Origin: Gemmatimonadota bacterium
GTDB lineage: Bacteria > JBHIER01 > G020348925
Assembly: GCA_020348925.1 (NCBI GenBank)
Contig: CP070758.1
Coordinates: forward strand, 1,770,030-1,834,029
Length of the DNA: 64,000 nt
Direction of reading: 5' to 3'
Positions 5,485 to 52,112 of the stretch are shown in pieces. The translations under genes and the position numbers were made by a program. Within the stretch, counting starts at the first letter, position 1; every line of letters begins with the position of its first letter. The notes beneath the pieces are model-generated. The model saw only the letters and a program-made list of their open reading frames with translations, was not told the origin of the DNA and did not search any database.

Positions 5485-5811
5485 TAAATTGCTCTCTTTT
5501 TCATAATAAGGAAGGGTTCAACATTCCTCGCACGGGTATAAAGTCCTCCCTCCCGTCTCTCTTGCTTCGCCATCATTTGTTACAGGCTTCAGCTCGTTTC
5601 AAAGTCTCCCCATACGTCAGGTGCTTTCAATGTTGCCTTAAGATTACTGTACAACGTTACATTATAAATCAGAAGGAGTCGGGTGAAACTTTATTGATAC
5701 GAGAGATGTCGTATCGAAAAACGAATACCCTGGGTTGAGGGTTTTGAAAGGAACAGTAGAATACGCGTTGAGTCGTGGTTAGATCAAGACCCAGATTCCG
5801 GCGGAGAAAAC

Positions 5812-6825
5812 ATGTTCTCTCTCTTTTCGGCCCTTCTTCTTCTTCACTCGCTCGTGTGGGCAGTACCGGAAGTATCCGGCACGGCCGGCACAGCCGATCC
5901 AGGTATCCATGTGTGGTACCTTGGTTCCAACGGCTGGGCCGTGAATATCGGCGAAAAATTGCTCGTCTTCGACTATCAGGAGGGCTCCGATCCAAATCCG
6001 CCCGCCGCAGGCGAAGGGCGAAACCTCCAGAGAGGGTATATCGATCCGGCTGAACTGGACTCCTTTGACACGTATGTGTTTGTGACGCACGCCCATCAGG
6101 ACCACTTCGAGCCCGTCATCCTGGACTGGCAGGAACAGGTCGACAGGATCAACTACTTTTTCGGTTGGGAGGCCGGCGACGATCCCGAACACCATTACAT
6201 GATCGGCCCGCGGGCCCAAGCGCAAGTTGGTGACGTGGAGGTCTACACCATCAACTCGTACCATACAGGCATCCCCGAGGTGGCCTTTCTGGTCCGGGTG
6301 GAGGGGTACACCATCTATCACAACGGGGATTATAAAGCGGAGTACCAGGAGGACTACGCATATCTCCAGACGGTTGCGGATGACATCGATATCGCCTTCG
6401 TCATCGGCATCACCTATGAAGGTCACCAGTATTTCCAGCAGACCCTGTGTCTGGCCGAGATGTTTCACCCGACGTACGTCTTCCCCATGAACCGCGAGGG
6501 GGACGAGTACAAGAGTCTCCAGTTCGCCCAGCTCTTGACGTCGCACGTATCCGGGGTCAACGTCCTTTGTCCCGAGCAGCGGGGCGATGACTACCTTATA
6601 GAGGGTGGCCGGGGAGATGTCAATTTAGATGGGGTAATAAATATCCTCGATGTCATACAAGCCGTGAATATTCTCCTGGAGATCGGAAATCCACCTATGG
6701 AATGTGAGAACCGGGCGGCCGATTGTAACGGTGATGAGAATGTTGATATTTTGGACATCCTCGGGATGATCAATGTGATTTTGGGAATTGGCGAGTGCCA
6801 ACCTCGATTGCCGCGGATTATGTAA
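5812..6825 (+). CDS. Secreted MBL-fold metallo-hydrolase with a C-terminal dockerin-type double Ca-binding repeat.
   Basis: HAHQDH metal-binding motif (HxHxDH). Hydrophobic N-terminus. C-terminal DVNLDGVINILDVIQAVNILL...CNGDENVDILDILGMINVIL is a dockerin type-I-like tandem repeat. Confidence 0.7.
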   Translation: MFSLFSALLLLHSLVWAVPEVSGTAGTADPGIHVWYLGSNGWAVNIGEKLLVFDYQEGSDPNPPAAGEGRNLQRGYIDPAELDSFDTYVFVTHAHQDHFEPVILDWQEQVDRINYFFGWEAGDDPEHHYMIGPRAQAQVGDVEVYTINSYHTGIPEVAFLVRVEGYTIYHNGDYKAEYQEDYAYLQTVADDIDIAFVIGITYEGHQYFQQTLCLAEMFHPTYVFPMNREGDEYKSLQFAQLLTSHVSGVNVLCPEQRGDDYLIEGGRGDVNLDGVINILDVIQAVNILLEIGNPPMECENRAADCNGDENVDILDILGMINVILGIGECQPRLPRIM

Positions 6826-11169: not shown

Positions 11170-11245
11170 AATGATTGACGTTCACCTCTCGTTTCCACTG
11201 CTGTCTGTGCTTTGAGAACCGACAAGTGTTTGCCTGTCTTTCGAT

Positions 11246-14200
11246 CTATCCACCCCCGATTATGATATGCACGATGCACATCGTATCAAGAATATCGATC
11301 GCACCAGTGGCATCACAATCTGCAGCCATGAGCTGGCCGTACGAGGGAATCATATCCTGCAAAATAATGCTGATGTTCATTACGACATCAACGATGTCGA
11401 CGTGTCCATCCCCATCGATATCACCTTTTCGAGGGGCTTCAATCTGCATCGACAATCCGACCCGTTCCGTGTTCATGACCGAATCAACTACTGCTACCTC
11501 GAAGGTTCTGCACTCAACAGAGTCTGGCACGCCTGACAGACAGCCGGTAGCATCCAAGGTCAGGCCGCACGGCAACATCCCCGAGTATACGAGCCACGTA
11601 TAAGGGGGCCAACCCCCTGCGGCCGAAAGTGTGTGTTCGTATTCGAATCCCATCTTTCCGGGTGGAAGAGTATCCGTACTGATCGCCAGGGGCAGATCAC
11701 AGACAATACTGTCCGAGAAGGGACCGGACCAGTTGCCGGCCACGTCCCGATATCTGACGGACACCCGCTTGTGTCCGGATCCGCCGCTTCCGCCGTATTG
11801 GGAGAGATCCCAGTCGTGCTTCGTGCTGTCGAGCGGCTCAGCCGGACTCCATGTCTGCCCGTTGTTTGAGAACTGCATGAGAGCGCCTGACCCCATTCCG
11901 CTCATCTCATCGACGGCGCTCAAAAAAGAGAGCGTCACCACAAGACTCGTCGTCGTATCGGCACCTCCGGAAATCGAAATTGTCCCCTGGCTGGGGGCGG
12001 TGGCGTCGAAGGCGAGCGTGACCGACGCACTTTTGTTGTGATCGACATTGTCCGCCCTGTCCTGAAGCCAGACGTAGACTGTGTGCGTACCCTCTGCTGC
12101 TGCTGAGAGGTTCAGGGGATATAAAGTGGTAAAGGTCCCGTCGTCCACGAAGGCCGGAGGTGAACTCAGACGATAGTATGCCCCCTCGACTCCGGAAAGA
12201 TCATCGGGATTGGTCCAGGTGAGGACAAAGGTTGAGTCGTTGGTCCATTCGGGTGGGTCGACTGTGAGGTCCAGGGGCGATTCAGGCGGTTCGGTGTCGA
12301 TCATGATTCGATAGTGTGCCGCCGGTCCCCACAGGCAGACGTCATCCCCGGCCCGGCAGTGGAAGTAGTATGTACCATCAGCGAGGCTATAATAGCCCTT
12401 CTCTCTCATTGTGTTATCTCTGGTCTCATCAGGCATAGTCTCGGGACTCTGGTCGAAAACGTAACTATATCCGATGACACCTGAGAGATCGTAAGGTTCC
12501 TCCCATTGAAACAGAACATCCACGGCCGAATACCAGTCCTCTTCATCCGGGTGCGTCGGGCTGCTGAGAAGAGGTGCTGAGGGCGGACTCGTGTCCTTAT
12601 AAAATTGCCAGTTCCACTCACCGGATTCACCCTCCACGTTGCCCGCATCGTCCACGGCCTTGAAATAGACAATATAGCTCCCGTTCGGCAGGGATGAAAA
12701 CTCCGACAGGGTCCAGCCGTCGCTGTCCCAATTCCTACCCGAAACATTCGTGAAGAGAACCGACCATTCCCCTGTGTAAGAATTGATCTGATACCAGCCA
12801 TCATCGAGGGCCATATCGTCATCGAAACCGAAGTTCGAGAAGAGGGGTGCCCGACTGTAGTACTGATTCTGGGGCTCACCGATGGTCTCCATGGTGGGGC
12901 TCTGATAATCGCCGACTCCAATCGGTCCGGCCAAAGCAGCCACCGCCGCTATGCTTGCTCTGACAACCTCAGTGGCATAGGGCAGGTTCAATGTCCCCAA
13001 AGTATCACCATCGCTGTGATAATAGGGCGTCCAGTCCGGAGATCCCCACAATTGCGCATCGATGGCGAAAATGGCTTTGTACCCGAGCAGGGCAAAGGAG
13101 TAATGATCGCTGCCCCATTGCTCGAAACCCGTATTTATCACCAAGGGCTCCGCCGTCGTATGTTGGTTCACCCTGTCGGCAAAAAAGAGGGCCAAATCGT
13201 AGGAATCGCTGTCACCATAGATGTTTATGTCCCACGTATCATTCGGAGGATCATCAACATAGGCGATCATGTCGAGGTTGATCACGCCGCGGATATCCAT
13301 ATCCCGGTCGGAGGCCCAATTGGCATAGTGCTCGCTACCCAATAATCCCTGCTCTTCACCTGAGAAACAGATGAAGAGTATGGTCGCATCGAAATCGTAC
13401 ATGCTGAGCACACGCGCCGCTTCGACGACCGCAGCCGTGCCGCTGGCGTTGTCATCCGCCCCCGGGGCTGAAATCCACGAATTGCCGTAAACATTTTTGG
13501 AATCGTAATGTCCACACAGGATATATTTCTGGCTCGTATCCGCTACGCCGGGATGAACAGCAACGACATTCCTCCACGTTTGTCCGCTGCAGAGTTCGCC
13601 GCCATAGGTATAGAAATCATAAGAGACGGAAAGACCGAAACTGGTAAAACGGTCGGACAAATATGCGGCCGCTGCCTGACACGAATCCGTGCATGAATAT
13701 CTCGTCCGGAAATCCTGAAGCCGTTTTATGGTTGCCCTGATTTCGCTCTCGGAGACATTGGACAGAATGGATTCGAGAAAAGCATACATTTCGGGATCTG
13801 TGGAGGGAACAGGGGGTTGCGGTTTCTTTCTGTCCCGGGGCAAACGGTCTTTGGAGATTCTCGTTAATCCGTAACCGAAGCGGGAGGCTCTTTCCGCCTC
13901 TGAAGGAGAGGCCCGCAGCAAAGCCGTGCCATTTCTGTAATCGAGCACTTCAGCGTGCTCCGCAATTTTCATCCGGTTGCCTTCGGGAACATAGAGGAGA
14001 TAGTCGTCTTCGGTTCCCTGGTCGTTTCTCAAGACATTGAGCTCCAATCCCACCCGATACAATTCATCCTTCTGGTCCTCGGATATTTTAACGAAAGCCC
14101 TCCCCTCGTAGACTGCCAAGACCGTGATTTCGAAGTCGGTCAGATACTGTTCATGTTCGGGGCTATCCACATCTATCAAAGCAAGGAAGCTCTCCTGTTC

Positions 14201-14302
14201 ACTCCGGACCGTCCCAACGACAGAGAGCACTACAAAGAAACATATCAAAAGCCCCAAAACACCGGCTTTCACACGTGGTTTCCCCTGACACCCAAAACGC
14301 AT
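11246..14302 (-). CDS. Secreted multidomain M28-family aminopeptidase. It carries PPxAP/HYRI repeat modules, a 'putative Ig' domain and a C-terminal dockerin.
   Basis: The signal peptide starts at the ATG at 14302 (MRFGCQGKPRVKAGVLGLLICFFVVLSVVGTV); the ORF also extends upstream to 14512. M28 motifs: HYDS, NSWISAPGADDNASGTAAVVEAARVL, FSGEEQGLLGSEHYA. Modules homologous to the 45938 and 48881 paralogs: DTSPPSAPLLSSPTHPDEEDWY...GTYYFHCRAGDD...HYRIMIDTEPP. Putative Ig domain: LPPGKMGFEYEHTLSAAGGWPPYTW. Dockerin: GDIDGDGHVDIVDVVMNISIIL...DCDATGAIDILDTMCIVHII. Confidence 0.75.
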   Translation of the reverse strand: MRFGCQGKPRVKAGVLGLLICFFVVLSVVGTVRSEQESFLALIDVDSPEHEQYLTDFEITVLAVYEGRAFVKISEDQKDELYRVGLELNVLRNDQGTEDDYLLYVPEGNRMKIAEHAEVLDYRNGTALLRASPSEAERASRFGYGLTRISKDRLPRDRKKPQPPVPSTDPEMYAFLESILSNVSESEIRATIKRLQDFRTRYSCTDSCQAAAAYLSDRFTSFGLSVSYDFYTYGGELCSGQTWRNVVAVHPGVADTSQKYILCGHYDSKNVYGNSWISAPGADDNASGTAAVVEAARVLSMYDFDATILFICFSGEEQGLLGSEHYANWASDRDMDIRGVINLDMIAYVDDPPNDTWDINIYGDSDSYDLALFFADRVNQHTTAEPLVINTGFEQWGSDHYSFALLGYKAIFAIDAQLWGSPDWTPYYHSDGDTLGTLNLPYATEVVRASIAAVAALAGPIGVGDYQSPTMETIGEPQNQYYSRAPLFSNFGFDDDMALDDGWYQINSYTGEWSVLFTNVSGRNWDSDGWTLSEFSSLPNGSYIVYFKAVDDAGNVEGESGEWNWQFYKDTSPPSAPLLSSPTHPDEEDWYSAVDVLFQWEEPYDLSGVIGYSYVFDQSPETMPDETRDNTMREKGYYSLADGTYYFHCRAGDDVCLWGPAAHYRIMIDTEPPESPLDLTVDPPEWTNDSTFVLTWTNPDDLSGVEGAYYRLSSPPAFVDDGTFTTLYPLNLSAAAEGTHTVYVWLQDRADNVDHNKSASVTLAFDATAPSQGTISISGGADTTTSLVVTLSFLSAVDEMSGMGSGALMQFSNNGQTWSPAEPLDSTKHDWDLSQYGGSGGSGHKRVSVRYRDVAGNWSGPFSDSIVCDLPLAISTDTLPPGKMGFEYEHTLSAAGGWPPYTWLVYSGMLPCGLTLDATGCLSGVPDSVECRTFEVAVVDSVMNTERVGLSMQIEAPRKGDIDGDGHVDIVDVVMNISIILQDMIPSYGQLMAADCDATGAIDILDTMCIVHIIIGGG

Positions 14303-14634
14303 ATCGAACTGAAACAATTTAAAGAGTTGAAAACACATACGTCCTTTTTTCTCAATCATAGTAACCCTGAAAAATAGCCTTTTATACCGTCTTAACGCAA
14401 GGAAATTCTTGCGTTCCAGGAAAAAAGAATACCGTAGAGATCTCGTATTGAATCTTGGCACATGCATCACGTTGAAGCGAACCGGAAACTTCTCCATAAA
14501 AAAACCTTGCACATCTTTTCAAAAAAAATTAAGTTATGTAAAATCATGGGGAGGGGGTTGAAACCATCCCACACCCCCGATGAGTGGACTTTCGGTGGAA
14601 ATTTGGACGTTTACAGAGAAAGCAGGAGAGCCCA

Positions 14635-16836
14635 ATGAGAAGACCATTTATTGTGAGCGTAATATTTTTGTGCGTCGTTCTTGTCGCGAGCGTCAGTGCC
14701 CAGAGCCGCACGGATCGCGAGGTGACGCTTGGAGCCAAACTGGAAGCCATCCAGCGAGCTATTCAGGAGAAGGGGGCGAACTGGACCGCAGGTATGACGG
14801 AGATCTTTCAGCTTCCTGAAGAGGAGCGGATGTTGATGTACGGGTGCGCCGATTCCATCTCCCAGGACAAAATCCCGGAGGAGCAGCAGCTCATGCGGTA
14901 CTCGTGGCAGCCGGAGAAATTCGATTGGCGCTTGAAGGACGGCGCGGACTGGACGACACCGGTCAAGAATCAGGGTAGGTGCGGAAGCTGCGTCGCCTTC
15001 GCCACAATCGGAACCCTGGAAGGGCAGCTCAATATTTTCTATGACGACCCGTACCTCAATATGGATCTCTCCGAGCAGTACCTCTTCGCCTGCGGGGGCG
15101 GGACCTGCAATGAGGGTATGAACACCGACCTCGCCTTTCGCTACGTCCTCGGAAACGGCGTTCCGGACGAGGACTGCTTCCCCTATACATCAGGACTGGC
15201 GGGCATCGATAGACCGTGCGGTGACGCCTGCCCCGACTGGCAGGAACGGATCCTCAAGCCCTCCTGTTACGGGGCCGCCGCCGCTGATAAAGACATCAAA
15301 GCACCGGCTGACATCAAAGAGCAGATTCTCCAGGGTCCCGTCTGCGTCACTATGGCCGTCTTCGAGGATTTTGACTCGTACACAGGCGGGATTTACCAAC
15401 ACGTTTGGGGTCAATACGAGGCCGGCCACGCCATCGTTATGGTCGGTTGGGACGACACGACCGAGCCCCCCTGCTGGATTGTCAGAAACAGCTGGGGCTC
15501 CGGATGGGGAGAGAGGGGCTATTTTCGGATACGGATGGGGACGAACGAGGTCGGGATTGAGGACCAGGCCCTCTACGCACGATTCGGCGACGTTCCGGAG
15601 GGAAGGCTCTCGAGCGGTGGCCATCAGTTCGGAGATGTGGATGTGGGAGATTCCGAAAATTGGCTGTTGAACATCTACAATGAAGGAGGTGCTCCCCTAG
15701 AAATATACGAGTACCAATCGAACAAGCCCAATTACTTCATCAGCTCGCCTGCGTCCTTCCCTCAGACTGTCACCCCGGGTGGAACCCTTGGCGTCACTCT
15801 CGTCTTCACTCCTGACACCCTGGGGGAGGAATTCGGCCGCATACGATTCCCGAGCAACAGCTGTCACTTTCTCTCCGTAAAATTGCGCGGGACAGGTGTC
15901 ATCCACAACGTGAGGACAAGTCAGAAATCCATCGAAAAGACCATGGTGGAAGGGGACATCATGACCGTGCCCCTGACCATGACCTACATCGGAGATACCA
16001 CCCTCACCTACCAAGTTGAAATTCTCAGGGAATGGCTCTCTGTTCAACCCGACAGCGGCACACTTGAAACCGGGGGTAGTGTCGATTTCACCGTTACCCT
16101 CGATGCGTCGAACCTGGAACCCGGCGAGTACAGAACAAATATTCTGATCAAAACGGACGATCCCACCGACAAACTCGTCGTCGTCCATATTGTTCTCAGT
16201 ACGGAGGAGGCCGCCGGGGTCGCCCTCACCATCCCGCCCACTGCCATACCCATTGACCGGACAATTCAATTGGGTCTGTCCATCGACAACAAGAACCGCA
16301 TCGAAATGCCCATCAGGGATGTTGCTCTGCACATCGGTTACGATGCGACGTTTATGGAGCTCCGCGAAATTTCATCCACCCTCCGGACCGAGCACATGAC
16401 CGCCTTTCAGTGGTCCGAAGCCGAACCAGGTCAAATTACCCTCTCGATCTCCGACGGCAACGGCAACTGCATCGTTCCCGGAACGGAGCCCATAGCCCAA
16501 TTTTTCTTCGAAGCCCGCGACGGCATATCATGCGGCGACAGCGTGACGCTCACCATCACCGAGGCGACCCTCATAGACACCCTCGGCAGTGCCCTCGAGG
16601 TCCGGCTGAACAACGACCCCTGCCTCCTGCTCTGCAAGGGGGATGTGAACGCTAACGGTACGATAGAGATAGATGATGTTATTGAGGTTATCCGTTTGAT
16701 TCTTGAGAATGGTTGTTTCGAGGAATGGACTCCAGAGTGCTGGTCCTCTGACTACAACGACGACGGAAGCATCGACGCCATGGACCTTGTGTGCATGGTC
16801 AACGTTATCTTGGACAGGGAGGCTGGTTCTGATTGA
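14635..16836 (+). CDS. Secreted papain-like (C1A) cysteine peptidase with an Ig-like/CARDB-like region, a cohesin-like domain and a C-terminal dockerin.
   Basis: RBS aggagag sits 5 nt before the ATG at 14635. Signal peptide MRRPFIVSVIFLCVVLVASVSAQ. Catalytic triad context: QGRCGSCVAF (Cys), GHAIVMVGWD (His), NSWGSGWGERGYFRI (Asn). The ALHIGYDATFMELREI...ITLSISDGNGN segment resembles cohesin. Dockerin: GDVNANGTIEIDDVIEVIRLIL...YNDDGSIDAMDLVCMVNVIL. Confidence 0.8.
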   Translation: MRRPFIVSVIFLCVVLVASVSAQSRTDREVTLGAKLEAIQRAIQEKGANWTAGMTEIFQLPEEERMLMYGCADSISQDKIPEEQQLMRYSWQPEKFDWRLKDGADWTTPVKNQGRCGSCVAFATIGTLEGQLNIFYDDPYLNMDLSEQYLFACGGGTCNEGMNTDLAFRYVLGNGVPDEDCFPYTSGLAGIDRPCGDACPDWQERILKPSCYGAAAADKDIKAPADIKEQILQGPVCVTMAVFEDFDSYTGGIYQHVWGQYEAGHAIVMVGWDDTTEPPCWIVRNSWGSGWGERGYFRIRMGTNEVGIEDQALYARFGDVPEGRLSSGGHQFGDVDVGDSENWLLNIYNEGGAPLEIYEYQSNKPNYFISSPASFPQTVTPGGTLGVTLVFTPDTLGEEFGRIRFPSNSCHFLSVKLRGTGVIHNVRTSQKSIEKTMVEGDIMTVPLTMTYIGDTTLTYQVEILREWLSVQPDSGTLETGGSVDFTVTLDASNLEPGEYRTNILIKTDDPTDKLVVVHIVLSTEEAAGVALTIPPTAIPIDRTIQLGLSIDNKNRIEMPIRDVALHIGYDATFMELREISSTLRTEHMTAFQWSEAEPGQITLSISDGNGNCIVPGTEPIAQFFFEARDGISCGDSVTLTITEATLIDTLGSALEVRLNNDPCLLLCKGDVNANGTIEIDDVIEVIRLILENGCFEEWTPECWSSDYNDDGSIDAMDLVCMVNVILDREAGSD

Positions 16837-20761: not shown

Positions 20762-21220
20762 TGTCCCACCTCCTTATTGGATAGGTGTAGATAGACCAAT
20801 ACATTCAAAATATACGCAACAATCATTCCATTCTATATTATAAAACTGTTGAGTCTTCTTAATTAACTATATTTCATCTATTTATATCATTAAACTTGAA
20901 ATCTGAAATATCAGAAATGAAAGCATTTTGTGCTCGGTGGCTGCAAAACATGCAGTTTCATTCCTCTAAGGATGGTGGAAAATAGATTGGTGGAGAATTT
21001 TTATTATATCCAAATTCGATCTTGATTTCTATAAATATCTTTTGTTACATACAACTTAAGCATCAAAGAAAAAATGCATGTTCTCTTTGATAATTCACTT
21101 TGGGGGAGAGGTTTGATTTAGTATTTCCAATACGTTCAAGAAGTGAGCCATCGAATACTTTTGGGTAAATAGGGAATAAAGTTCTTGTATCAGGAGTGTG
21201 GATAAACGTAAATCCGAAAT

Positions 21221-45537: not shown

Positions 45538-45937
45538 TCCAGGTTTCCCCTTTTACCACCACCCCTCCACCATTAAACACCTTGACAGTGAGTCTGGGAT
45601 GTCATATCTTTTGTTCCAAAGAATAGCGGAGAAGGGGTCGAGCCGGATGGACAGGGACCCCGTGAACGGTTGGACACGGAGGAGAATTTATATCGCAGAT
45701 CGATTCCTCCGTCAATTTTTTTAGGAGCATGATAACAACTGAAAGATGATGGGAGCGAGCAGAGCCATAGGTAACCTGAAAAAGGATCACACTCAATCTC
45801 GGACCGTGAGATTGCCTGGGCAAAAAAATACCGAAAAGACTCTTTTTTTGACTTAAGTCAAGGTGTTCCAAAATGTTCTTATATATTTTCAAATTTCCAA
45901 TATGAAGTGCACGGACGATACACATAAAGGGCACGAT

Positions 45938-48691
45938 ATGTTTTTCAGACTCATTCTTCTTTTTGTAAGTACTGCTATGTTTTGGCCAGTTCTGGTGCAC
46001 GGCCAGGAGATTCTCAAGCAATTGCAGGCGCCGGGCTCTGAACCGAGGGGCTTGACCTGGGACGGCCACTCCCTGTGGTGTGCTGATGCCTCGGCACAAA
46101 GGGTCTATCAAATCGATCCTGACGACGGTCAGATCATCTCCTCATTCGACTACTCTATGGACTTCCAGTACGGAGGGCTGGGCTGGAGCCCCGAGGGATA
46201 TCTTTGGATCACAGATTACCGGGAGAGTCAAAGCTGGTTCGACAAGGTCCACCCGACATCGGGCAGCGTGATCTCCTCGTTCCACTGCCCAGGCGGGTGA
46301 ACCGCTCGAGGTGCAGGGGTGGCCAGTCTGGCCATCGACACTCTCTGGTACTCCGACAGGAGGCAAAAATATATCGGTAAAACGACCACATCAGGGTATT
46401 TGGTCGAAAACATTGAAACGTTCGACTCATTGATTCGCGACATAGCCTGGGACGGGACCCATATCTGGGCCATATCACTCGAGGGAACGATCAAGAAATT
46501 CAGCACCTCAGGCGATCTGATCGAGACATACGCCGGGCTCCTCAGCGGCGGATGGGGGCTGACCTATGATGGTGCCTATGTGTGGGCCTCCGATCCGGGA
46601 ACGAACAAAATTTACAAACTTCTCTTCCCGGGCTTGGGCGACAAAACACCACCTTCCGCTCCCGCGCTCACATCCGACACGCACCCATCCCAGGACGACT
46701 GGTACAGGCAGGACAGTCCCACCCTCAACTGGACCCCCCCTGCAGATCCCTCGGGCATAAGCGGATACAGTTACGCAGTGAACCACGAATCCACATTTTC
46801 TCCGGATACAACCAGTGAGGGTTGGCTGACAACCGCCACGTACAGCGACCTGACTGACGGCACATGGTATTTCCACTGCCGGGCCAGAGACGGCGTAGGC
46901 AATTGGAGCACGGCGAATCATTACCGTATCAGAATCGACACACAAGCCCCTGCCCCCCCCATCAACCCCACCGTTTTTCCCAGCGGATGGACCAACGACA
47001 GTATTTTCCAAGTCCACTGGACTAATCCTCCCGACAGTTCGGCCATAGCCGGTGTCTATTACAAGATCGGACCACCTCCTGAACACGGGGAAGATGGGAC
47101 GTTTTCTTCGACGATACCTCTATTTCTCGCAGCCCCGGCTGAAGGCGAAAACGCTGTGCATCTCTGGCTCGAAGACGGCGCAGGGAACAAGGACGAGGCC
47201 TCTCGCGCCGATGCCGTTCTCCCGTATGATGCCACCGGACCTCAGGAGGGGACTATTTTAATAAACGCCGGCGCTGAAGCTACAGTATCAACCACGGTCA
47301 CTTTAGCCAATCTAAACGCTGTTGATGCCTTGAGCGGCATGGAACCAGGGGCACAGATGCGGTTCAGCAACGACGGTACGACCTGGTCTCCGGCCGAAGA
47401 CTATACGAGCCTCAAGACCAACTGGGATCTCTCCTCGTATGGGGGGACGAGTCAACCGGGACCCAAGACGGTCTCCGTCATATACCGCGATGCCGCCGGC
47501 AACTGGTCAGATCCCTTCAGCGACGACATTCTTCTCTCTGAACCCCTGGCTATTGTCACCGATTCCCTGCCCGGAGGTGCTGTGGGCTTTGCCTACGAGG
47601 AGACTTTGGTTGCAACAGGAGGGGTACCGCCTTATAGCTGGAGCATATCCTCCGGAGCGCTTCCCAACAATCTGACGCTCACTCCCGACGGCACAATCAC
47701 CGGTGTGCCTGATGAAGCCGGTCCTTCGAATTTTATCGTCGAGGCGATCGACCCCTATTCGAGTTCTCAGTTCCGAGCTTACACAATCACCATATTCATC
47801 GGGGCAACCAAAGGGGACATAAACGGCGACTCCGAGGTCGATCTTCGCGATATACTCCCTGTTGTCGGATATATTCTGGGACGAAGCGGGTTGACGCAGT
47901 CGCAGCTCTGGTCGGCTGATGCCTTTCCTGACGGATCAATCGACCTGTCCGACCTGGTGGCTTTAGCCCATCTCATCGTCGGGCAATCGTCCGGAGCCGC
48001 GAGGGTCTCATATTCTGGGGGAGGTCCATCCGTTCTCCGGGCCTCACACACATATGATGCTCCATCATCAACCGTGACTCTGTTCCTCGACAACGGAGTA
48101 CCTGTCGGTGGCCTTCAACTCGAGGTACGATTACCCCGGGACGCAACGCTTCGCAAGCCCCCTCAAGTCACCGACCGATGCGGATCTTTCACCGTGGACT
48201 ATACCAAGAATCACGACGATCTCACCGTCCTGACGTACACCCTCAACGGAGACGCGATCTTACCCGGGTCAGGACCCCTCTTGATGCTGTCTTTATCCTG
48301 CCCGGAAGATACGAAGGAACAGAACGCCATAATAGAAAAAGCATTTCTGGTCGGTGTCAGGGGCGAACCGCTCCCTCTCGACATTCGGACAGAATCTGTA
48401 GTGACTGCCCCCGTGGCACACGGTTTGGCACGCAACTATCCCAATCCTTTCAATCCTGAGACGTCCATCAGTTTTTCACTTCCTGCTGAGAACACCGTTT
48501 CCGTAATCATCTATGATGCTTTGGGCCGCAGGGTGAGAACAATCGCCGAGGAGACATTGAAGGCCGGAGTTCACACCATGCTTTGGGACGGACGTGATGA
48601 AGGCGGCCACGCATCGCCGAGCGGAGTCTATTATTGCAGAATTGACGGGGGAGATGTCGTTCACACACTAAAGTTGGCCCTCATCAGATAA
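45938..48691 (+). CDS. Secreted beta-propeller / PPxAP-module / putative-Ig / dockerin / cohesin-like protein ending in a T9SS C-terminal sorting domain. It is interrupted by one in-frame TGA at 46298-46300, presumed recoded (selenocysteine?).
   Basis: Signal peptide MFFRLILLFVSTAMFWPVLVHGQ. The ORFs 45863..46300 and 46319..48691 share a frame and are separated only by a TGA after ...FHCPGG. The second ORF has no signal peptide yet ends in a T9SS CTD (NYPNPFNPETSISFSLP...SGVYYCRI). Propeller-blade repeats: GLTWDGHSLWCAD...VYQID, IAWDGTHIWAIS...IKKF, GLTYDGAYVWASD...IYKL. Dockerin: GDINGDSEVDLRDILPVVGYIL...DGSIDLSDLVALAHLIVG. Confidence 0.6.
46298..46334 (+). promoter_or_regulatory. In-frame UGA with a downstream hairpin (tggccaGTCtggcca, 46320-46334). 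Candidate bacterial SECIS-like recoding element.
   Basis: The TGA at 46298-46300 is followed 19 nt later by a 6-bp perfect stem with a GUC loop. The E. coli fdhF SECIS apical loop is (A)GGUC(U). A homologous position in the paralog 48881..51319 has the same arrangement. Confidence 0.5.
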
Positions 48692-48880
48692 TATTTCCGT
48701 AGCAATGACATCATTTCCGCTTTAAATTGGAATATTTTACAGGACCCTTTCGGGATCGTGCGGAAGTTCCAAAAGGTCACTCCCGGTTTGGGGGAAAACG
48801 GTCTTCTCCTCAAAAGAGGAATAATCCCGAACCCCACGCTTCGGGCGGTGCGAACCAAGTTCGAAAGAGAGAGGTGGCTT

Positions 48881-51319
48881 ATGAAACAATGGCAACGGTT
48901 GCTTTCGGTTTTTCTTGTATCACTCCTACCGGTCGCCGGATTCGCTCAACGCATTGTCAAAGAGTTTGATACTCCGGGTCCTGAGCCGAGGGGCTTGACC
49001 TGGGACGGAACATATCTCTGGTGCGCTGATGCCGAAGAGGATTCCATATTCAAGATCGATCCTGAGTCAGGTCAAGTTATTCACTCTTTCTATTTCAGCA
49101 TGACTTTTGAATTTTCCAGAGGAGGAGGAATAGCGTGGAGCGGCGACGGTGCCCTGTGGGCCACCCGTAGTACCTATTTTTATAAACTTGACGCGAACAC
49201 CGGTCAGAGCATAACAAACTTTCACTGTCCTGGGGGCTGAAGCGTCCGACCGGCGGGCGTGACCCGCCAAGGGAGTTACCTCTGGTATTACGATCAAACA
49301 TCCAATTACGTTGGGAAAACGACCACCGGAGGGAGTCTTCTGGCCAATTTCATCCCGAGCGACAACACTCTCCGAGACCTTTGTTGGGACGGCACCCATC
49401 TCTGGACCATGAACATCTCAGGCGAGATAAAGAAATATACCACATCCGGAGTTCTCGAAGAAACCGTTACCGATCTTCTCCCAAGAGGATGGGGCATAAC
49501 GTTCGACGGCTCACATCTGTGGGCCTCGGATCCTCAAACCGATAAGATCTATCAAATAGCACTCTCCGATGACTCAGATCCCCCCGGAGCGCCGCTGATC
49601 CAAAGCGCAACGCATTCCTTCGATTCAGCCTGGTACAGCGATCCCGATCCGGTTTTCACCCTCACGCAACCTGAAGATCCTTCGGGTATCGCCGGATACA
49701 GCTATCTCCTGGATGAACACGCTGAGACCGTCCCTGACAATTCTGTCGACGGAACAGGAACGACGGTCGCCTATGTATCCATCCAGGATGGAAAATGGTA
49801 TTTCCACTGTCGGGCTCAGGATGGGGCCGGGAATTGGGGCGAGACAAATCACTACAGAATTCAGATCGATACGACACCTCCGGCAGGTGGCACCATCCTC
49901 ATCGAGGATGACGCCGACACGACGAAATCCTTAGTGGTAACCTTGGGCAATCTCCAAGCCGAAGATACTCTCTCGGGAATGGGTTCCGGTGCAGCCATGA
50001 AATTCAGCAACTACGGATCCGTCTGGTCAGACGAAGAGCCTTTCAGGGACACCCGCACGGGCTGGGATCTCTCACAATATGGCGGAAATGATTCCTCGGG
50101 TCTGAAAAGGGTCTTCGTCTCTTTCCGAGATGTGGCCGGGAACTGGTCCCAGCCCCTCTTCGATGAGATCATCTACAGCGCACCTCTTGTCGTTGAAACA
50201 GAATCGCTGAGTGCAGGTACCCTGGGTTTCGCTTATGCCGAAACGCTTTTCGCCTCAGGCGGTTGGCCACCCTATGAGTGGGAGATTGGTGGGGGTGCAT
50301 TACCTCCTGACCTGGAACTCGATACTACTGGCATCATATCAGGGAAACCGGATTCGGCCGGAACATTCACTTTTACGGTGACTGTAACTGACGCCAACAT
50401 GTCCGCAACAATGAAGGATTATACAATCACCATTCACATTGAGGCCGAAAAGGGAGACGTGAACGGCGACGCGGATGTCAATATTCTTGATATCATCGCC
50501 GTTGTTCGATATATCCTCGGATTGGAGGAGTTTACCCCTCTTCAAATATGGGCGGCTGACGTCATAACCGACGGCGCCATCGATGTAACGGACATCCTGG
50601 GCATCGTCAACCTCATCCTCGAATCGCCTGGTGGAGGACGGTTGATGCTCTCACAGGGGCAGGCCCTCATCGGCCTCGAAGAAGACACACGCTTTCCCAA
50701 TGCCCACAATACCACAGCTGTTACCTTGAAGAGTCAAATACCTGTGGCTGGAATCCAGCTGAACATAAGGCTGGCTTCAGGTTCAAAGCTAACACGCCCG
50801 CCTCAATTGACACAGTGGAGTCAAACTTTTCAATGCAGCTATAAAATCAACGAGAATAATGTCTTACTTCTGTTGTACAGCCTGTCACACGAGATCATTT
50901 CACTGCCCTATCCTGTTCCAATTGTGAATCTCCGTATCCCTGAGGATGCCTACCCCGTATACATTGAAAGTGTCATCGTCGCTGACAAAAACGGCCAGCC
51001 AATCACCGTCGGCAACGATCCTGAAAAGCTGAGCTCTGCCCGGCAGGGGACGGACGTTCAAAGCCATCCGAATCCCTTTAATACGGAAACGTTCCTGTCG
51101 TTCACCCTTGAAAAGAGAGAATACGTCACACTGTCTGTCTACAATGTCCTGGGTCAAATGGTCAGAACACTCGTGAGCGGGGAGTGTGATCCGGGCGAAC
51201 ATGTGGTGAGCTGGGACGGCACGGACTGGACCGGCAATACACTTCCCAGCGGAGTCTATTTCAGCCGAATAGAAGTGGGAAATATCGGAACCGTTAGGGA
51301 GATGCTCCTTTTGAAGTGA
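48881..51319 (+). CDS. Paralog of 45938..48691 with the same domain order (beta-propeller, PPxAP module, putative Ig, dockerin, cohesin-like, T9SS CTD). It is interrupted by an in-frame TGA at 49238-49240, presumed recoded.
   Basis: RBS gagaggtgg upstream. Signal peptide MKQWQRLLSVFLVSLLPVAGFAQ. The ORFs 48758..49240 and 49259..51319 share a frame and are split only by a TGA after ...FHCPGG. Dockerin: GDVNGDADVNILDIIAVVRYIL...DGAIDVTDILGIVNLIL. T9SS CTD: HPNPFNTETFLSFTL...YNVLGQMVRTLV...SGVYFSRI. Confidence 0.6.
49238..49268 (+). promoter_or_regulatory. In-frame UGA with a downstream hairpin (ggcgggCGUGAcccgcc, 49252-49268). Candidate SECIS-like recoding element.
   Basis: The TGA at 49238-40 is followed 11 nt later by a 6-bp GC stem with a CGUGA loop (a GU dinucleotide in the apical loop). 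It is positionally equivalent to the hairpin at 46320-46334, although the sequences differ. Confidence 0.5.
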
Positions 51320-51416: not shown

Positions 51417-52112
51417 CTATTCCTCTCGAATCAGCTCCTTGAGAAGCGTTGTGAGCACCCTGGCCAGTTTCCGTTCTTCACTTGTTTGACGGAGATTGAA
51501 CGTGTCAATATCGCCCTTGGCTCCGCGCTGCTGAGAGCCATCACGGACAACGGCCAGAATAGCCGGCTTCGCACCGTACTGGATGGATGTAAAAAATGCT
51601 CGCAAATCTTTTATCGTACCATCTTTACATCGGATTGCGAACGTCCCCTGCTCAGGCAGCTCGCCACCCATTGTATACCCTTGATAAATCTGTCTGATTC
51701 GTTCCTTCTCCGCTGGAAAAGCGTGTGTGTCATAGGTTTTATCCAGCATATCCTCGTTCGTGTACCCCATGATTCGCTTGAGCGCTTTATTGAAGAACTT
51801 GTGGGCTCCGTCCTGGATAACCGTGACACCGTCCTCAAACCTATTGAGAAAAGCTGTAAAATGTTCGTCCGGCTGGCCGGATGTGTCGACGCCTTGATAC
51901 ATCTGCCCCTCGCCCGTCAGGAGCCAGTCGAGGGAAAAACCCATTTCACAGAGTTTTTTCAGAATTTCATCTTCCGGAAGTCTCCCCTTCTCATAATTGC
52001 AGATGGCCGGTCCTGTCTTGCCAAATCGCGTTCCAAATTCAACCTGGTTTTCACCAAGACTCTTACGAATTTTGACTAACCTTTCACCACGTTCCTTGTC
52101 AAGTGTTGCCAT
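51417..52112 (-). CDS. XRE-family HTH transcriptional regulator with a C-terminal PAS-like sensor domain.
   Basis: N-terminal Cro/C1-type HTH (LVKIRKSLGENQVEFGTRFGKTGPAICNYEKGRLP). The C-terminal roughly 120 aa carry PAS-like features (IMGYTNEDMLDKTYDTHAFPAEKERIRQIY...GTFAIRCKDGTIKDL). Confidence 0.6.
   Translation of the reverse strand: MATLDKERGERLVKIRKSLGENQVEFGTRFGKTGPAICNYEKGRLPEDEILKKLCEMGFSLDWLLTGEGQMYQGVDTSGQPDEHFTAFLNRFEDGVTVIQDGAHKFFNKALKRIMGYTNEDMLDKTYDTHAFPAEKERIRQIYQGYTMGGELPEQGTFAIRCKDGTIKDLRAFFTSIQYGAKPAILAVVRDGSQQRGAKGDIDTFNLRQTSEERKLARVLTTLLKELIREE

What the first reader, a model, noticed from the sequence alone, without database searches (positions are those of the whole stretch)
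45938..51319. Tandem paralogous ~900-aa secreted proteins with an unusual module order: beta-propeller – PPxAP/HYRI module – 'putative Ig' – dockerin – cohesin-like – T9SS CTD
The two adjacent genes share the whole architecture, including:
- the PPSAP...DWY...SGI(A/S)GYSY...GTWYFHCRA(R/Q)DG(A/V)GNWS..NHYRI(R/Q)IDT module;
- the GFAYxETL..GG.PPY.W putative-Ig motif;
- a dockerin double repeat immediately followed by a cohesin-like beta-sandwich (GGLQLEVRLP... / AGIQLNIRLA...).

A third protein, the M28 peptidase at 11246..14302, reuses the same PPxAP module, putative-Ig motif and dockerin.

Dockerin and cohesin on the same T9SS-anchored polypeptide suggests a self-assembling cell-surface protein lattice outside the cellulosome context.
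Basis: partly seen in the sequence, partly recalled or inferred. Interest (0 to 1): 0.65.

Follow-up and report, generated by a model that had tools for sequence, protein, structure and literature searches.

The report
Secreted selenoproteins carrying dockerin and cohesin
Each is also interrupted by a conserved UGA codon that most likely encodes selenocysteine, so they belong to a widespread selenoprotein family that I could not find in current catalogues.

Summary
The architecture is real. Both genes have a signal peptide, a five-bladed beta-propeller, Big_13 and Ig-like modules, He_PIG, a type-I dockerin, a cohesin and a T9SS type-A sorting domain. The "cohesin-like" call holds:
- Direct Pfam and PDB sequence searches fail.
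- A profile of the module recovers Pfam-Cohesin proteins and PDB cohesins.
- The AlphaFold model (pLDDT 94) matches cohesin structures almost exclusively.

The dockerin-cohesin-CTD order is a recurrent cassette in uncultured bacteria. A T9SS-anchored cohesin-dockerin system has already been inferred for Cloacimonadota.

- All 17 homologous loci I could read have TGA at that site, with coding continuing in frame.
- 84 further database proteins end exactly at that motif.
- A GC-rich hairpin fitting the bacterial SECIS model follows each TGA.
- TGA is an ordinary stop elsewhere in the window.
- The read-through propeller folds as one domain (pLDDT 94.5).

No close Cys-containing orthologue was found. 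The family matches no NCBIfam selenoprotein model and is absent from the 2026 catalogue of 119 families. Whether the genome has Sec machinery could not be tested. The propeller's chemistry is inferred only.

The parts
45938..48691 (+). Gene 1. One 917-codon reading frame including one in-frame TGA (codon 121) and the final TAA.
   Evidence: ORFs 45863-46300 and 46319-48691 are in the same frame, separated only by the TGA. One search gives the domains.
45938..46003 (+). Gene 1 signal peptide (MFFRLILLFVSTAMFWPVLVHG|QE).
   Evidence: Read from the sequence (hydrophobic core, small residues before the cut). No signal-peptide predictor was available.
46004..46636 (+). Gene 1 five-bladed beta-propeller domain containing the Sec codon.
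   Evidence: Alignment A1. Weak Vgb_lyase match. The fold is inferred from the gene 2 model.
46298..46300 (+). In-frame TGA of gene 1, candidate selenocysteine codon (F-H-C-P-G-G-U).
   Evidence: The same codon is found at the same site in 17 of 17 loci.
46318..46336 (+). SECIS-like hairpin of gene 1: GGUGGCC(A)-GUC-(U)GGCCAUC. The apical loop starts 24-25 nt after the UGA.
   Evidence: -11.2 kcal/mol; about 1% of in-frame positions in window genes reach -10. (conserved in 8 sequences, 2 compensatory pairs). Model criteria from PMC13188914.
46667..46942 (+). Gene 1 'PPxAP...HYRI' module, which matches Pfam Big_13.
   Evidence: E 1.5e-7, 32.2 bits, cut-off 27.
47582..47794 (+). Gene 1 He_PIG putative Ig domain.
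   Evidence: 31.3 bits, cut-off 24.
47810..47971 (+). Gene 1 type-I dockerin with two Ca-loop repeats.
   Evidence: 27.6 bits, cut-off 22.9.
48041..48406 (+). Gene 1 cohesin module.
   Evidence: profile homology. (AF2 pLDDT 94; Foldseek top hits are cohesins).
48437..48676 (+). Gene 1 T9SS type-A C-terminal sorting domain.
   Evidence: TIGR04183: 36.4 bits and 34.2 bits, cut-off 23.
48881..51319 (+). Gene 2. One 812-codon reading frame including one in-frame TGA (codon 120). It ends with an ordinary TGA stop.
48881..48946 (+). Gene 2 signal peptide (MKQWQRLLSVFLVSLLPVAGFA|QR).
   Evidence: Read from the sequence. No predictor was available.
48947..49573 (+). Gene 2 five-bladed glutaminyl-cyclase-like beta-propeller containing the Sec codon.
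   Evidence: AF2 of the read-through domain: pLDDT 94.5, pTM 0.91, 20 strands. (3mbr, 2iwa and 3nol at TM 0.80).
49238..49240 (+). In-frame TGA of gene 2, candidate selenocysteine codon.
49249..49273 (+). SECIS-like stem-loop of gene 2: a 9-pair consensus stem whose upper stem is GGCGGG-CGUGA-CCCGCC. The apical loop starts 17 nt after the UGA.
   Evidence: -11.4 kcal/mol. (5 sequences, 3 compensatory pairs, -13.0 kcal/mol consensus).
49643..49873 (+). Gene 2 'PPxAP...HYRI' module with a Big_13-like match below the cut-off.
   Evidence: 22.1 bits, cut-off 27. It is 50% identical to the gene 1 module.
50201..50434 (+). Gene 2 He_PIG domain.
   Evidence: 43.1 bits.
50450..50617 (+). Gene 2 type-I dockerin.
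   Evidence: 38.8 bits.
50669..51037 (+). Gene 2 cohesin module.
51068..51295 (+). Gene 2 T9SS type-A sorting domain.
   Evidence: TIGR04183 29.0 bits, cut-off 23. (FlgD_ig 42.1 bits).
11246..14302 (-). M28 peptidase sharing the Big_13, Ig-like, He_PIG and dockerin suite. It is a candidate docking partner.
14584..16836 (+). Papain-family C1 peptidase with Ig domains, a third cohesin module (about 16270-16614) and a C-terminal dockerin.
   Evidence: A3 profile E 5e-9.
5698..6825 (+). Metallo-beta-lactamase-fold protein with a C-terminal dockerin.

Best explanation
Each gene is a single selenoprotein gene.

Translation (inferred from strong sequence evidence): translation starts at the signal peptide. 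At the conserved UGA inside blade 3 of the propeller, a SelB-type factor bound to the hairpin just downstream inserts selenocysteine. This gives full-length proteins of 917 and 812 aa.

Export and display (inferred from established T9SS biology): the products are exported by the Sec translocon, cross the outer membrane through the type IX secretion system and are displayed on or released from the cell surface. The type-A C-terminal domain directs this step.

The head (shown as fold and conservation, inferred as chemistry):
- The N-terminal five-bladed, glutaminyl-cyclase-like propeller is the functional head.
- Its C-P-G-G-U loop lies between the outer strand of blade 2 and the inner strand of blade 3.
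- It most likely forms a redox-active Cys/Sec (selenenylsulfide) pair. That pair would act on S-S or S-Se bonds outside the cell.

The stalk and connectors:
- The Big_13, Ig-like and He_PIG modules form a stalk.
- The dockerin and the cohesin next to the anchor are connectors. They would tie these proteins to each other, or to the dockerin- and cohesin-bearing peptidases encoded nearby, in a cellulosome-like surface assembly.

What is shown: the architecture, the cohesin fold, the conserved UGA, the hairpin and the single-domain fold across the UGA.
What is inferred: Sec insertion itself, T9SS export, the redox chemistry and which dockerin binds which cohesin.
For: In-frame TGA:
- It sits at the identical site in both paralogs.
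- The same holds in 15 more genes: both genes of the syntenic contig L001, plus L002, L003, eight GTDB genomes (L004-L011) and L021-L023. That makes 17 of 17 TGA, never TAA or TAG.
- Amino-acid similarity and an excess of synonymous changes continue in the same frame on both sides.
- 84 of 84 short database homologues end exactly at F-x-C-P-G-G or a close variant of it; 77 of the 84 end in C-P-G-G.
- TGA is a normal stop for many genes in the window, including gene 2 itself.

Hairpins:
- They score -11.2 and -11.4 kcal/mol. The apical loops contain GU (AGUCU and CGUGA) and begin 24 and 17 nt after the UGA, which meets the published bSECIS criteria.
- Only about 1% of in-frame positions in window genes reach -10 kcal/mol.
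- Compensatory pairs occur in both alignments.

Structure and modules:
- The read-through propeller folds as one five-bladed domain with pLDDT 94.5 and pTM 0.91. It resembles glutaminyl cyclases at TM 0.80.
- Dockerin, He_PIG, Big_13 and CTD score above their cut-offs.
- The cohesin is supported by profile and by fold.

Context:
- Sister genes fuse the same Sec-propeller to rhodanese plus beta-helix plus dockerin, to dockerin plus CTD, or to CTD alone.
- Neighbouring genes encode dockerin- or CTD-bearing peptidases, both here and in L022.
Against: - No selA, selB, selD or tRNA-Sec was found in the window or in any fetched locus. The rest of the genome could not be searched.
- No close homologue has Cys at the Sec position, which is the usual supporting criterion. 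Only the distant P0007 and P0014 have Cys within one residue of it.
- Rfam finds nothing in the window at its gathering thresholds.
- The hairpin is weak in the Zixibacteria rhodanese-fusion group: 2+3 consensus pairs (up to 2+4 by eye) around a mismatch, with a consensus energy of -2.75 kcal/mol.
- The two folded 63-nt stretches are not more stable than shuffled sequence, z about -0.5.
- The redox function rests only on the Cys/Sec motif and the rhodanese fusions.
- Cohesin-dockerin binding and T9SS machinery were not tested.
Confidence: 0.75

Rival explanations
1. The TGA is a real stop or a leaky stop and does not encode selenocysteine. Either each locus is two genes (a small secreted two-blade peptide plus a downstream protein started at an internal GTG), or the UGA is read through at low level by a near-cognate tRNA such as Trp or Cys.
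For: - Gene callers and GenBank annotate the halves separately, for example UCE20051.1, a 119-aa hypothetical protein.
- A GTG lies 6 codons after each TGA in the window.
- No Sec machinery and no Cys-form homologue were found.
Against: - The split falls inside blade 3 of a propeller that folds confidently only as one unit.
- The downstream part has no signal peptide of its own, yet it carries a dockerin and a T9SS CTD.
- The start-like GTG is not conserved: the Zixibacteria genes have CTG at that codon.
- The stop is TGA in 17 of 17 cases, whereas an ordinary stop would drift among TAA, TAG and TGA.
- A conserved hairpin with a G[U/G] apical loop follows at SECIS spacing.
Confidence: 0.12
2. 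The dockerin of one molecule binds the cohesin of another copy or of the paralog, so the T9SS-anchored proteins polymerise head-to-tail into a self-assembling surface lattice.
For: - One dockerin and one cohesin lie on the same polypeptide in both paralogs and in at least 26 other library proteins.
- The genes are tandem paralogs.
Against: - No binding test was possible.
- The orthologue of gene 2 in the syntenic contig L001 lacks the cohesin module altogether. L002 and L023 have dockerin plus CTD only. The cohesin is therefore dispensable for this protein family.
- Three dockerin-bearing enzymes in the window have no sorting domain and would need a cohesin partner. That favours an anchoring role.
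Confidence: 0.2
3. The cohesin module is only a structural spacer between the functional modules and the T9SS sorting domain. It keeps the cohesin fold but binds no dockerin. The dockerin then binds a cohesin elsewhere in the genome or is a plain Ca-binding module.
For: - The window modules are too divergent to match Pfam Cohesin directly.
- Sequence identity to solved cohesins is 7-15%.
- The module sits immediately before the CTD in 51 of 144 proteins, a position where Ig-like spacers are common.
- Non-cellulosomal cohesins of unknown partner are known, such as 2xdh.
Against: - The module co-occurs with a dockerin far more often than chance. 35 of 144 proteins have a double Ca-loop motif within 115 aa upstream, against 4% of random segments.
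- Cohesin and dockerin genes are dense in this window.
Confidence: 0.25
4. The propeller is a glutaminyl cyclase or another non-redox hydrolase or lyase of the Vgb or lactonase type. Sec would serve as a nucleophile or metal ligand rather than as half of a redox pair.
For: - The best full-length structural matches are glutaminyl cyclases at TM 0.80.
- There are weak matches to Vgb lyase models.
- Database names of relatives include glutamine cyclotransferase and streptogramin lyase.
Against: - There is no Pfam Glu_cyclase_2 match at E <= 0.01.
- The C-P-G-G-U loop is an insertion specific to this clade and is absent from the non-Sec relatives.
- Cys is conserved 4 residues before Sec, or directly adjacent in L011, as in thiol/selenol redox motifs.
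- The clade is fused to rhodanese in its sister group.
Confidence: 0.2

Closest known systems
Bacterial selenoprotein genes with a coding-region SECIS (for example fdhF; 119 families and subfamilies listed in PMC13188914)
   Same: An in-frame UGA is followed within 16-37 nt by a stem-loop with a small apical loop that has G in its first two positions. A Cys lies near the Sec, as in many redox selenoproteins.
   Different: - The fold is a five-bladed propeller; most catalogued families are thioredoxin-like.
- The motif is C-x3-U rather than CxxU or UxxC.
- No catalogued family and no NCBIfam selenoprotein model matches.
- No Cys-form orthologues were found.
- The protein carries T9SS, dockerin and cohesin display modules.
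Plant/bacterial-type glutaminyl cyclase (five-bladed propeller; PDB 3mbr, 2iwa, 3nol)
   Same: The overall five-bladed fold, with TM 0.80-0.81 over the whole domain.
   Different: - Identity is 15-20%.
- There is no Pfam PF05096 match.
- The Sec-bearing loop is a clade-specific insertion.
- Cyclase catalytic residues were not examined.
Cellulosomal and non-cellulosomal cohesin-dockerin pairs (Pfam PF00963 and PF00404; for example A. fulgidus cohesin 2xdh, ScaB cohesins)
   Same: The cohesin fold and profile-level homology. A canonical duplicated Ca-loop dockerin.
   Different: - One cohesin and one dockerin sit on the same enzyme-like polypeptide.
- No multi-cohesin scaffoldin is present in the window.
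- No glycoside hydrolases are nearby; the neighbours are peptidases.
Cellulosome-like, T9SS-CTD-anchored assembly inferred in Cloacimonadota (PMC8542988)
   Same: Dockerin-bearing peptidases are combined with cohesin proteins carrying a C-terminal sorting domain, in an uncultured lineage of the kind (Cloacimonadota, Zixibacteria) that carries T9SS sorting domains.
   Different: In that system a 3,755-aa scaffoldin has tandem cohesins. Here single cohesins are appended to catalytic proteins, one class of which is a selenoprotein.
Thioredoxin reductase C-terminal Gly-Cys-Sec-Gly redox centre (recalled from my own knowledge, not tested here)
   Same: A Cys/Sec pair lies on a Gly-rich flexible loop. 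The Cloacimonadota member reads P-G-C-U.
   Different: The fold and context are entirely different. This is an analogy only.
Rhodanese-like selenoproteins (forms 1-5 in PMC13188914)
   Same: Sister members of this family contain a rhodanese domain.
   Different: In those families Sec replaces the rhodanese active-site Cys. Here the rhodanese keeps Cys (C-x-S-G-x-R-S) and the Sec is in the propeller.

Membership tests
Bacterial selenoprotein gene (Sec-UGA plus bSECIS) | In-frame UGA at a conserved site, with the same reading frame under selection on both sides. | tested here: met
   17 of 17 loci have TGA at the same site. Alignment is conserved on both sides. Synonymous changes are abundant up- and downstream. 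84 of 84 short homologues end at the motif or a close variant of it.
Bacterial selenoprotein gene (Sec-UGA plus bSECIS) | Stem-loop meeting the bSECIS model: 3-9 nt loop, at least 4 bp stem, G in the first two loop positions, 16-37 nt spacing, MFE <= -7.5 kcal/mol. | tested here: met
   Criteria are from PMC13188914. Window genes score -11.2 and -11.4 kcal/mol and have compensatory pairs. The hairpin is weaker in the Zixibacteria rhodanese-fusion group, where the stem is interrupted.
Bacterial selenoprotein gene (Sec-UGA plus bSECIS) | Homologues with Cys aligned to the UGA. | tested here: not met
   There is no Cys form among 53 + 231 homologues or in 185,579 species genomes searched with the FHCPGGC pattern. 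Only the distant P0007 and P0014 have Cys one residue away.
Bacterial selenoprotein gene (Sec-UGA plus bSECIS) | selA, selB, selD and tRNA-Sec in the same genome. | not testable with these tools
   None occur in the window or in 23 fetched loci. The rest of the 5.04-Mb source contig could not be read.
Bacterial selenoprotein gene (Sec-UGA plus bSECIS) | UGA is not generally reassigned in the organism. | tested here: met
   TGA ends many well-supported genes of the window, including lepA, SIR2, signal peptidase, the C1 peptidase and gene 2 itself.
Any catalogued prokaryotic selenoprotein family | Match to a listed family or to an NCBIfam selenoprotein model. | tested here: not met
   Table 1 of PMC13188914 (119 families) has no propeller or C-x3-U family. 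NCBIfam gives only weak Vgb lyase matches. The word 'propeller' is absent from PMC9312934 and from the BSepDB paper.
Cohesin (Pfam PF00963) | Direct match to the family model. | tested here: not met
   No Cohesin match even at E <= 10. No PDB cohesin is found by single-sequence search.
Cohesin (Pfam PF00963) | Profile-level (transitive) homology to cohesins. | tested here: met
   26 of 40 aligned relatives match PF00963, best E 1.2e-14. The profile hits PDB cohesins, 3l8q at 3.9e-7 and 5n5p at 1e-5.
Cohesin (Pfam PF00963) | Cohesin beta-sandwich fold. | tested here: met
   AF2 pLDDT 94.0 and pTM 0.86. Nearly all of the top Foldseek PDB hits are cohesins at TM 0.65-0.76.
Cohesin (Pfam PF00963) | Ca-dependent binding of a dockerin, and conserved binding-face residues. 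| not testable with these tools
   No complex prediction or binding assay is available. Identity to solved cohesins is only 7-15%.
Dockerin type I (Pfam PF00404) | Model match above the gathering score, with two Ca-loop repeats. | tested here: met
   27.6 and 38.8 bits against a cut-off of 22.9. Both D-x-N-x-D-type loops are visible in the translations.
T9SS type-A sorting domain (TIGR04183 / PF18962) | C-terminal domain match above the cut-off. | tested here: met
   TIGR04183 scores 36.4 bits (gene 1) and 29.0 bits (gene 2) against a cut-off of 23.
T9SS type-A sorting domain (TIGR04183 / PF18962) | T9SS machinery (PorU, PorV, SprA and so on) in the genome. | not testable with these tools
   No such gene is among the window genes scanned.
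Glutaminyl cyclase, plant/bacterial type (PF05096) | Five-bladed propeller fold. | tested here: met
   3mbr, 2iwa and 3nol match at TM 0.80-0.81.
Glutaminyl cyclase, plant/bacterial type (PF05096) | Sequence-model match or catalytic residues. | tested here: not met
   No PF05096 match at E <= 0.01. Catalytic residues were not compared.
Cellulosome-like system | Scaffoldin with several cohesins. | tested here: not met
   Only three single cohesin modules occur in the window, each on a catalytic-type protein.
Cellulosome-like system | Several dockerin-bearing enzymes. | tested here: met
   Five dockerin proteins lie in 64 kb: the MBL-fold protein, the M28 peptidase, the C1 peptidase, gene 1 and gene 2.

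The most novel reading that the evidence does not exclude
These genes define a large, apparently obligate-Sec family of extracellular selenoenzymes. The family is found mainly in Zixibacteria and also in MAGs labelled Gemmatimonadota, Cloacimonadota and Ignavibacteria. A glutaminyl-cyclase-like propeller uses a Cys/Sec pair to carry out sulfur or selenium redox chemistry at the cell surface: disulfide, persulfide or polysulfide exchange. It works with rhodanese in sister genes. T9SS and cohesin-dockerin contacts integrate it into peptidase-containing surface complexes. This would be the first selenoprotein component of a cellulosome-like machine.
Probability: 0.3. Interest if true: 0.8.

Novelty: new variant of a known kind. 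Interest (0 to 1): 0.62.

Why it matters
- **Selenoproteome.** If the UGA encodes Sec, there is an unrecorded selenoprotein family with well over 80 distinct members in public data. At present they are annotated as two unrelated hypothetical proteins, or named 'BamB', 'YncE' or 'streptogramin lyase'.
- **New biology for Sec.** The family would extend selenocysteine to a beta-propeller fold and to T9SS-secreted, cohesin-dockerin-linked surface proteins. It points to selenium-dependent extracellular chemistry in abundant uncultured sediment bacteria.
- **Cys-alignment screens.** The family apparently lacks Cys-form orthologues, so selenoprotein screens that rely on Cys alignment may miss families of this kind.
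- **Cohesin-dockerin systems.** The dockerin-cohesin-CTD cassette gives a concrete set of modules, five dockerins and three cohesins in 64 kb. These can be used to test how non-cellulosomal cohesin-dockerin systems are wired in Gram-negative bacteria.

Tried and rejected
- **Direct cohesin searches.** Direct Pfam (E up to 10) and PDB sequence searches of the cohesin-like segments gave nothing useful. The word-indexed homology search with that segment found no hit. Only the exhaustive profile search worked.
- **RNA searches.** Rfam at gathering thresholds found nothing in the window. ARAGORN found no tRNA in the window and only tmRNA in L008 and L010. Whole-stretch RNA folding was not more stable than shuffles, so I relied on the local hairpin, its spacing and its conservation.
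- **Global TGA reassignment.** Rejected: many genes of the window end with TGA.
- **Pseudogene.** Rejected: 17 loci and 84 further proteins share the same site.
- **Cys-form orthologues.** Searched for by single sequence, by profile and by a genome-wide FHCPGGC pattern. None was found.
- **Other selenoprotein genes.** I looked for other in-frame-TGA genes in about 310 kb of held sequence. Only the propeller genes stood out.
- **Source contig.** Exact protein look-up failed twice.
- **Sec pathway in the lineage.** I looked for literature evidence in Zixibacteria and Gemmatimonadota and found none.
- **Structure jobs.** The propeller was modelled with X at the Sec position.
- **Promoters and terminators.** The scan around the genes was at chance level.
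- **Regex error.** My first dockerin regex was too strict and gave zero matches. It was replaced and controlled against random segments.

Full report
**1. What is in the sequence**

The region 45938-51319 holds two tandem genes on the + strand.
- Gene 1 starts at the ATG at 45938 (MFFRLILLFVSTAMFWPVLVHG|QE...) and ends at the TAA at 48689-48691.
- Gene 2 starts at the ATG at 48881 (MKQWQRLLSVFLVSLLPVAGFA|QR...) and ends at the TGA at 51317-51319.

Domain scores for gene 1 / gene 2 are as follows.

| Model | Gene 1 (bits) | Gene 2 (bits) | Cut-off |
|---|---|---|---|
| Big_13 (the PPxAP...HYRI module) | 32.2 | 22.1 | 27 |
| He_PIG | 31.3 | 43.1 | 24 |
| Dockerin_1 | 27.6 | 38.8 | 22.9 |
| FlgD_ig | 44.3 | 42.1 | 27 |
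| TIGR04183 (T9SS type-A sorting domain) | 36.4 | 29.0 | 23 |

The paralogs are 44.5% identical over 805 columns, and 50% identical in the propeller. Gene 1 has one extra Ig-like module.

The M28 peptidase (11246-14302, - strand) reuses Big_13, He_PIG and a dockerin. It is 39.6% identical to gene 1 over 639 columns. The observation therefore holds, with one important omission described in section 3.

**2. The 'cohesin-like' module**

Direct tests failed:
- There is no Pfam Cohesin match even at E <= 10.
- There is no PDB cohesin by sequence.
- The word-indexed search finds no homologue.

Profile and fold tests succeeded:
- A profile of the two window modules (A2) was searched exhaustively and found 182 proteins at E <= 0.001.
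- After aligning 38 of their modules with the two window modules (A3), 26 of the 40 members match Pfam Cohesin, best E 1.2e-14.
- The A3 profile hits mainly solved cohesins, for example 3l8q at 3.9e-7 and 5n5p at 1e-5; 19 of its 22 matches are cohesins, including all those with E below 0.3.
- AlphaFold2 on A3 gave pLDDT 94.0 and pTM 0.86 for the gene 1 module.
- Foldseek against the PDB returned cohesins almost exclusively. The best is the non-cellulosomal cohesin of Archaeoglobus fulgidus, 2xdh, at E 1.1e-7 and TM 0.75.

The same profile finds a third cohesin module in the neighbouring C1 peptidase, residues 563-677, at E 5e-9. With the MBL-fold protein at 5698-6825, the window has five dockerin proteins and three cohesin modules.

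**3. The in-frame TGA**

Each gene is split by a single TGA in the same frame:
- ...SSFHCPGG-TGA-TARGAGV... at 46298-46300.
- ...TNFHCPGG-TGA-SVRPAGV... at 49238-49240.

TGA is an ordinary stop for many genes of the window, so there is no general reassignment.

The same interruption is found in every relative I could read at the DNA level:
- both genes of a syntenic metagenome contig (L001), plus L002 and L003;
- eight GTDB species genomes, L004-L011. Five are labelled Zixibacteria, one is an unclassified bacterium, one is an 'Ignavibacteria' bin and one is Cloacimonadota;
- three further contigs, L021-L023.

That makes 17 of 17 TGA and never TAA or TAG.

Protein similarity continues in frame across the codon. 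Roughly half or more of the changed codons are synonymous in most comparisons (about a quarter to two-thirds overall), both upstream and downstream.

A profile search returned 231 relatives at E <= 1e-10. Among the 120 listed, 84 new ones are shorter than 200 aa. All 84 end at F-x-C-P-G-G or a close variant of it: 49 end in FHCPGG, 18 in FSCPGG, 7 in FRCPGG, and 7 depart from C-P-G-G in the last three residues. These are N-terminal fragments cut by gene callers at this codon. One of them is this window's own gene, deposited as UCE20051.1, 'hypothetical protein JSV84_06830 [Gemmatimonadota bacterium]', on a contig of 5,038,017 bp.

**4. SECIS-like hairpins**

The published bacterial SECIS model asks for four things (PMC13188914):
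- a loop of 3-9 nt;
- a stem of at least 4 bp;
- a G in the first two loop positions;
- 16-37 nt between the UGA and the loop, with MFE <= -7.5 kcal/mol.

The window genes fit this model:
- Gene 1 has GGUGGCC-AGUCU-GGCCAUC, with the loop 24 nt after the UGA, at -11.2 kcal/mol.
- Gene 2 has GGCGGG-CGUGA-CCCGCC, with the loop 17 nt after the UGA, at -11.4 kcal/mol.
- Only about 1% of in-frame positions of long window genes reach -10 kcal/mol under the same rules.

Consensus folding gives two groups:
- For the gene-2 group, RNAalifold gives a 9-pair stem-loop with three compensatory pairs and -13.0 kcal/mol.
- For the gene-1 group plus Zixibacteria and Cloacimonadota, it gives a conserved 5-pair hairpin with a 5-nt loop and two compensatory pairs. 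This consensus is weak, at -2.75 kcal/mol.

In the Zixibacteria rhodanese-fusion genes the stem is interrupted by a mismatch and fails my strict test. Rfam at gathering thresholds reports nothing in the window.

**5. One domain across the UGA**

The read-through propeller of gene 2, with X at the Sec position, was modelled with an alignment of database homologues (A4). It folds as a single domain with pLDDT 94.5, pTM 0.91 and 20 strands, which is five four-stranded blades.

The Sec is residue 98 of the mature domain. It lies in the loop between the last strand of blade 2 (88-93) and the first, innermost strand of blade 3 (102-108). By the usual propeller topology these loops surround the mouth of the central channel. 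That placement is an inference, because I had no access to the coordinates.

The best full-length structural neighbours are the five-bladed glutaminyl cyclases 3mbr, 2iwa and 3nol at TM 0.80-0.81. Pfam Glu_cyclase_2 does not match. The C-P-G-G-U loop is an insertion specific to this clade; ordinary relatives have P-G-x-x-P-x-G-L there.

**6. Is it a known selenoprotein?**

- The 2026 catalogue of 119 prokaryotic selenoprotein families and subfamilies has no propeller and no C-x3-U family.
- NCBIfam release 20 has no selenoprotein model that matches.
- Two other recent overviews do not mention a propeller.
- No Cys-form orthologue was found. The distant P0007 and P0014 have a Cys one residue away.

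Lack of Cys forms is unusual. It would hide the family from Cys-alignment screens. It also removes one standard line of support.

I could not test whether the genome has selA, selB, selD and tRNA-Sec. None is present in the window or in any fetched locus.

**7. Family context**

The Sec-propeller is always preceded by a signal peptide. It is combined with different display modules:
- the window's suite, also seen in L004;
- dockerin plus CTD, in L002 and L023;
- CTD alone after unassigned sequence, in L011;
- rhodanese plus right-handed beta-helix plus dockerin, in L005-L010 and L021; the L022 member shows rhodanese plus dockerin without a recorded beta-helix hit.

Neighbours are often dockerin- or CTD-bearing peptidases. 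Here they are the M28 and C1 peptidases. In L022 an M28 plus dockerin gene lies directly upstream and an S8 plus CTD gene lies nearby.

Cys is conserved four residues before Sec. In the Cloacimonadota member it is adjacent, reading P-G-C-U.

**8. Most likely mechanism**

- Shown: architecture, cohesin fold, conserved UGA, hairpin and a single-domain fold across the UGA.
- Inferred, with high confidence: SelB- and SECIS-dependent insertion of Sec, giving full-length secreted proteins.
- Inferred from established T9SS biology: export by the Sec translocon and T9SS, with surface attachment or release after CTD removal.
- Inferred, with low to moderate confidence: the Cys/Sec loop is a redox centre acting on S-S or S-Se bonds outside the cell. 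This would be consistent with the rhodanese fusions. Possible roles are disulfide, persulfide or polysulfide exchange, perhaps opening disulfide-bonded substrates or keeping co-displayed cysteine peptidases reduced.
- Inferred: the dockerin and the anchor-proximal cohesin connect these proteins with each other or with the nearby dockerin and cohesin enzymes.

**9.

The dockerin-cohesin-CTD order is not unusual. Of 144 other library proteins with this module:
- 51 carry it immediately before a CTD;
- 26 have dockerin-cohesin-CTD;
- 19 have cohesin-dockerin-cohesin-CTD.

These counts are regex-based, with a 4% random rate.

A cellulosome-like, CTD-anchored cohesin-dockerin assembly with peptidases has already been proposed for Cloacimonadota (PMC8542988). 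A self-assembling lattice remains possible but is untested. The cohesin is missing from the L001 orthologue of gene 2 and from the L002 and L023 members, so it is dispensable for the family. Three dockerin enzymes in the window lack a sorting domain, which favours an anchoring role for the cohesins.

**10. Verdict**

The finding is real and its cohesin call is right. Its 'unusual architecture / lattice' reading describes a known kind of system. The novel element is that these are candidate selenoproteins of an uncatalogued, widespread family. I put Sec decoding at about 0.85. I put the overall explanation at 0.75, with the chemistry at about 0.3.

Noticed in passing
window 14584-16836 (+); cohesin module about 16270-16614: A papain-family C1 peptidase carries two Ig-like domains, a cohesin module (A3 profile E 5e-9) and a C-terminal dockerin, but no T9SS sorting domain. 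It is a second architecture with cohesin and dockerin on one polypeptide, in the opposite order.
   Followed up: partly
window 5698-6825 (+): A metallo-beta-lactamase-fold protein has a C-terminal dockerin (40.2 bits). It is one of five dockerin proteins in 64 kb.
   Followed up: no
window 18701-20773 (-): A 690-aa protein has no recognisable domain except a T9SS type-A sorting domain (TIGR04183 38.7 bits).
   Followed up: no
L001 4628-6862: The orthologue of gene 2 in the syntenic contig has lost the whole cohesin module and the start of the sorting domain, including the NPF motif. The loss is an in-frame deletion of about 130 aa between '...HN' and 'SETFLSFTL'. It is either a natural deletion variant or an assembly artefact.
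   Followed up: partly
L005-L010, L021, L022 (for example L008 9872-11857): In Zixibacteria the same Sec-propeller is fused to a Cys-type rhodanese (C-x-S-G-x-R-S), in most of these members a right-handed beta-helix, and a C-terminal dockerin. Several of these have an extra Cys five residues after the Sec (U-G-A-T-S-C in L007-L010).
   Followed up: partly
L011 1617 (Cloacimonadota MAG): A variant motif, A-P-G-C-U, has Cys directly next to the Sec codon. It is reminiscent of the Gly-Cys-Sec-Gly centre of thioredoxin reductase. This member also lacks the otherwise conserved Cys in L-W-C-A-D.
   Followed up: no
window 48881-49240 and database entries P0216-P0313: Public annotation splits these genes. 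The N-terminal fragments are deposited as hypothetical proteins or named 'BamB', 'YncE', 'streptogramin lyase' or 'sugar lactone lactonase' (for example UCE20051.1, KPL00063.1, MGB2697257.1, HEX9912704.1).
   Followed up: partly
window (whole) versus L004-L010: The window's own protein is labelled 'Gemmatimonadota bacterium' in GenBank. The closest genome-resolved relatives of the gene are labelled Zixibacteria or unclassified, so the taxonomic label of the source MAG may deserve a check.
   Followed up: no
window 426-2954 (-) and 9643-11181 (-): Two SpoIIE/PP2C-type phosphatases, one with a HAMP domain, flank the dockerin-protein cluster. A PAS/HTH regulator (51417-52112, -) lies directly downstream of gene 2, and this placement is conserved in L001.
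   Followed up: no
L023 1549-3087 (-) and 13147-16514: Near another family member lie a cohesin plus T9SS-CTD protein, a multi-4Fe-4S ferredoxin and a multihaem cytochrome. This is a possible redox context for the selenoprotein.
   Followed up: no
L008 16953-17333 and L010 17412-17792 (-): tmRNA genes with the tag peptide ANDYSYALAA lie about 7 kb downstream of the selenoprotein gene in two genomes.
   Followed up: no
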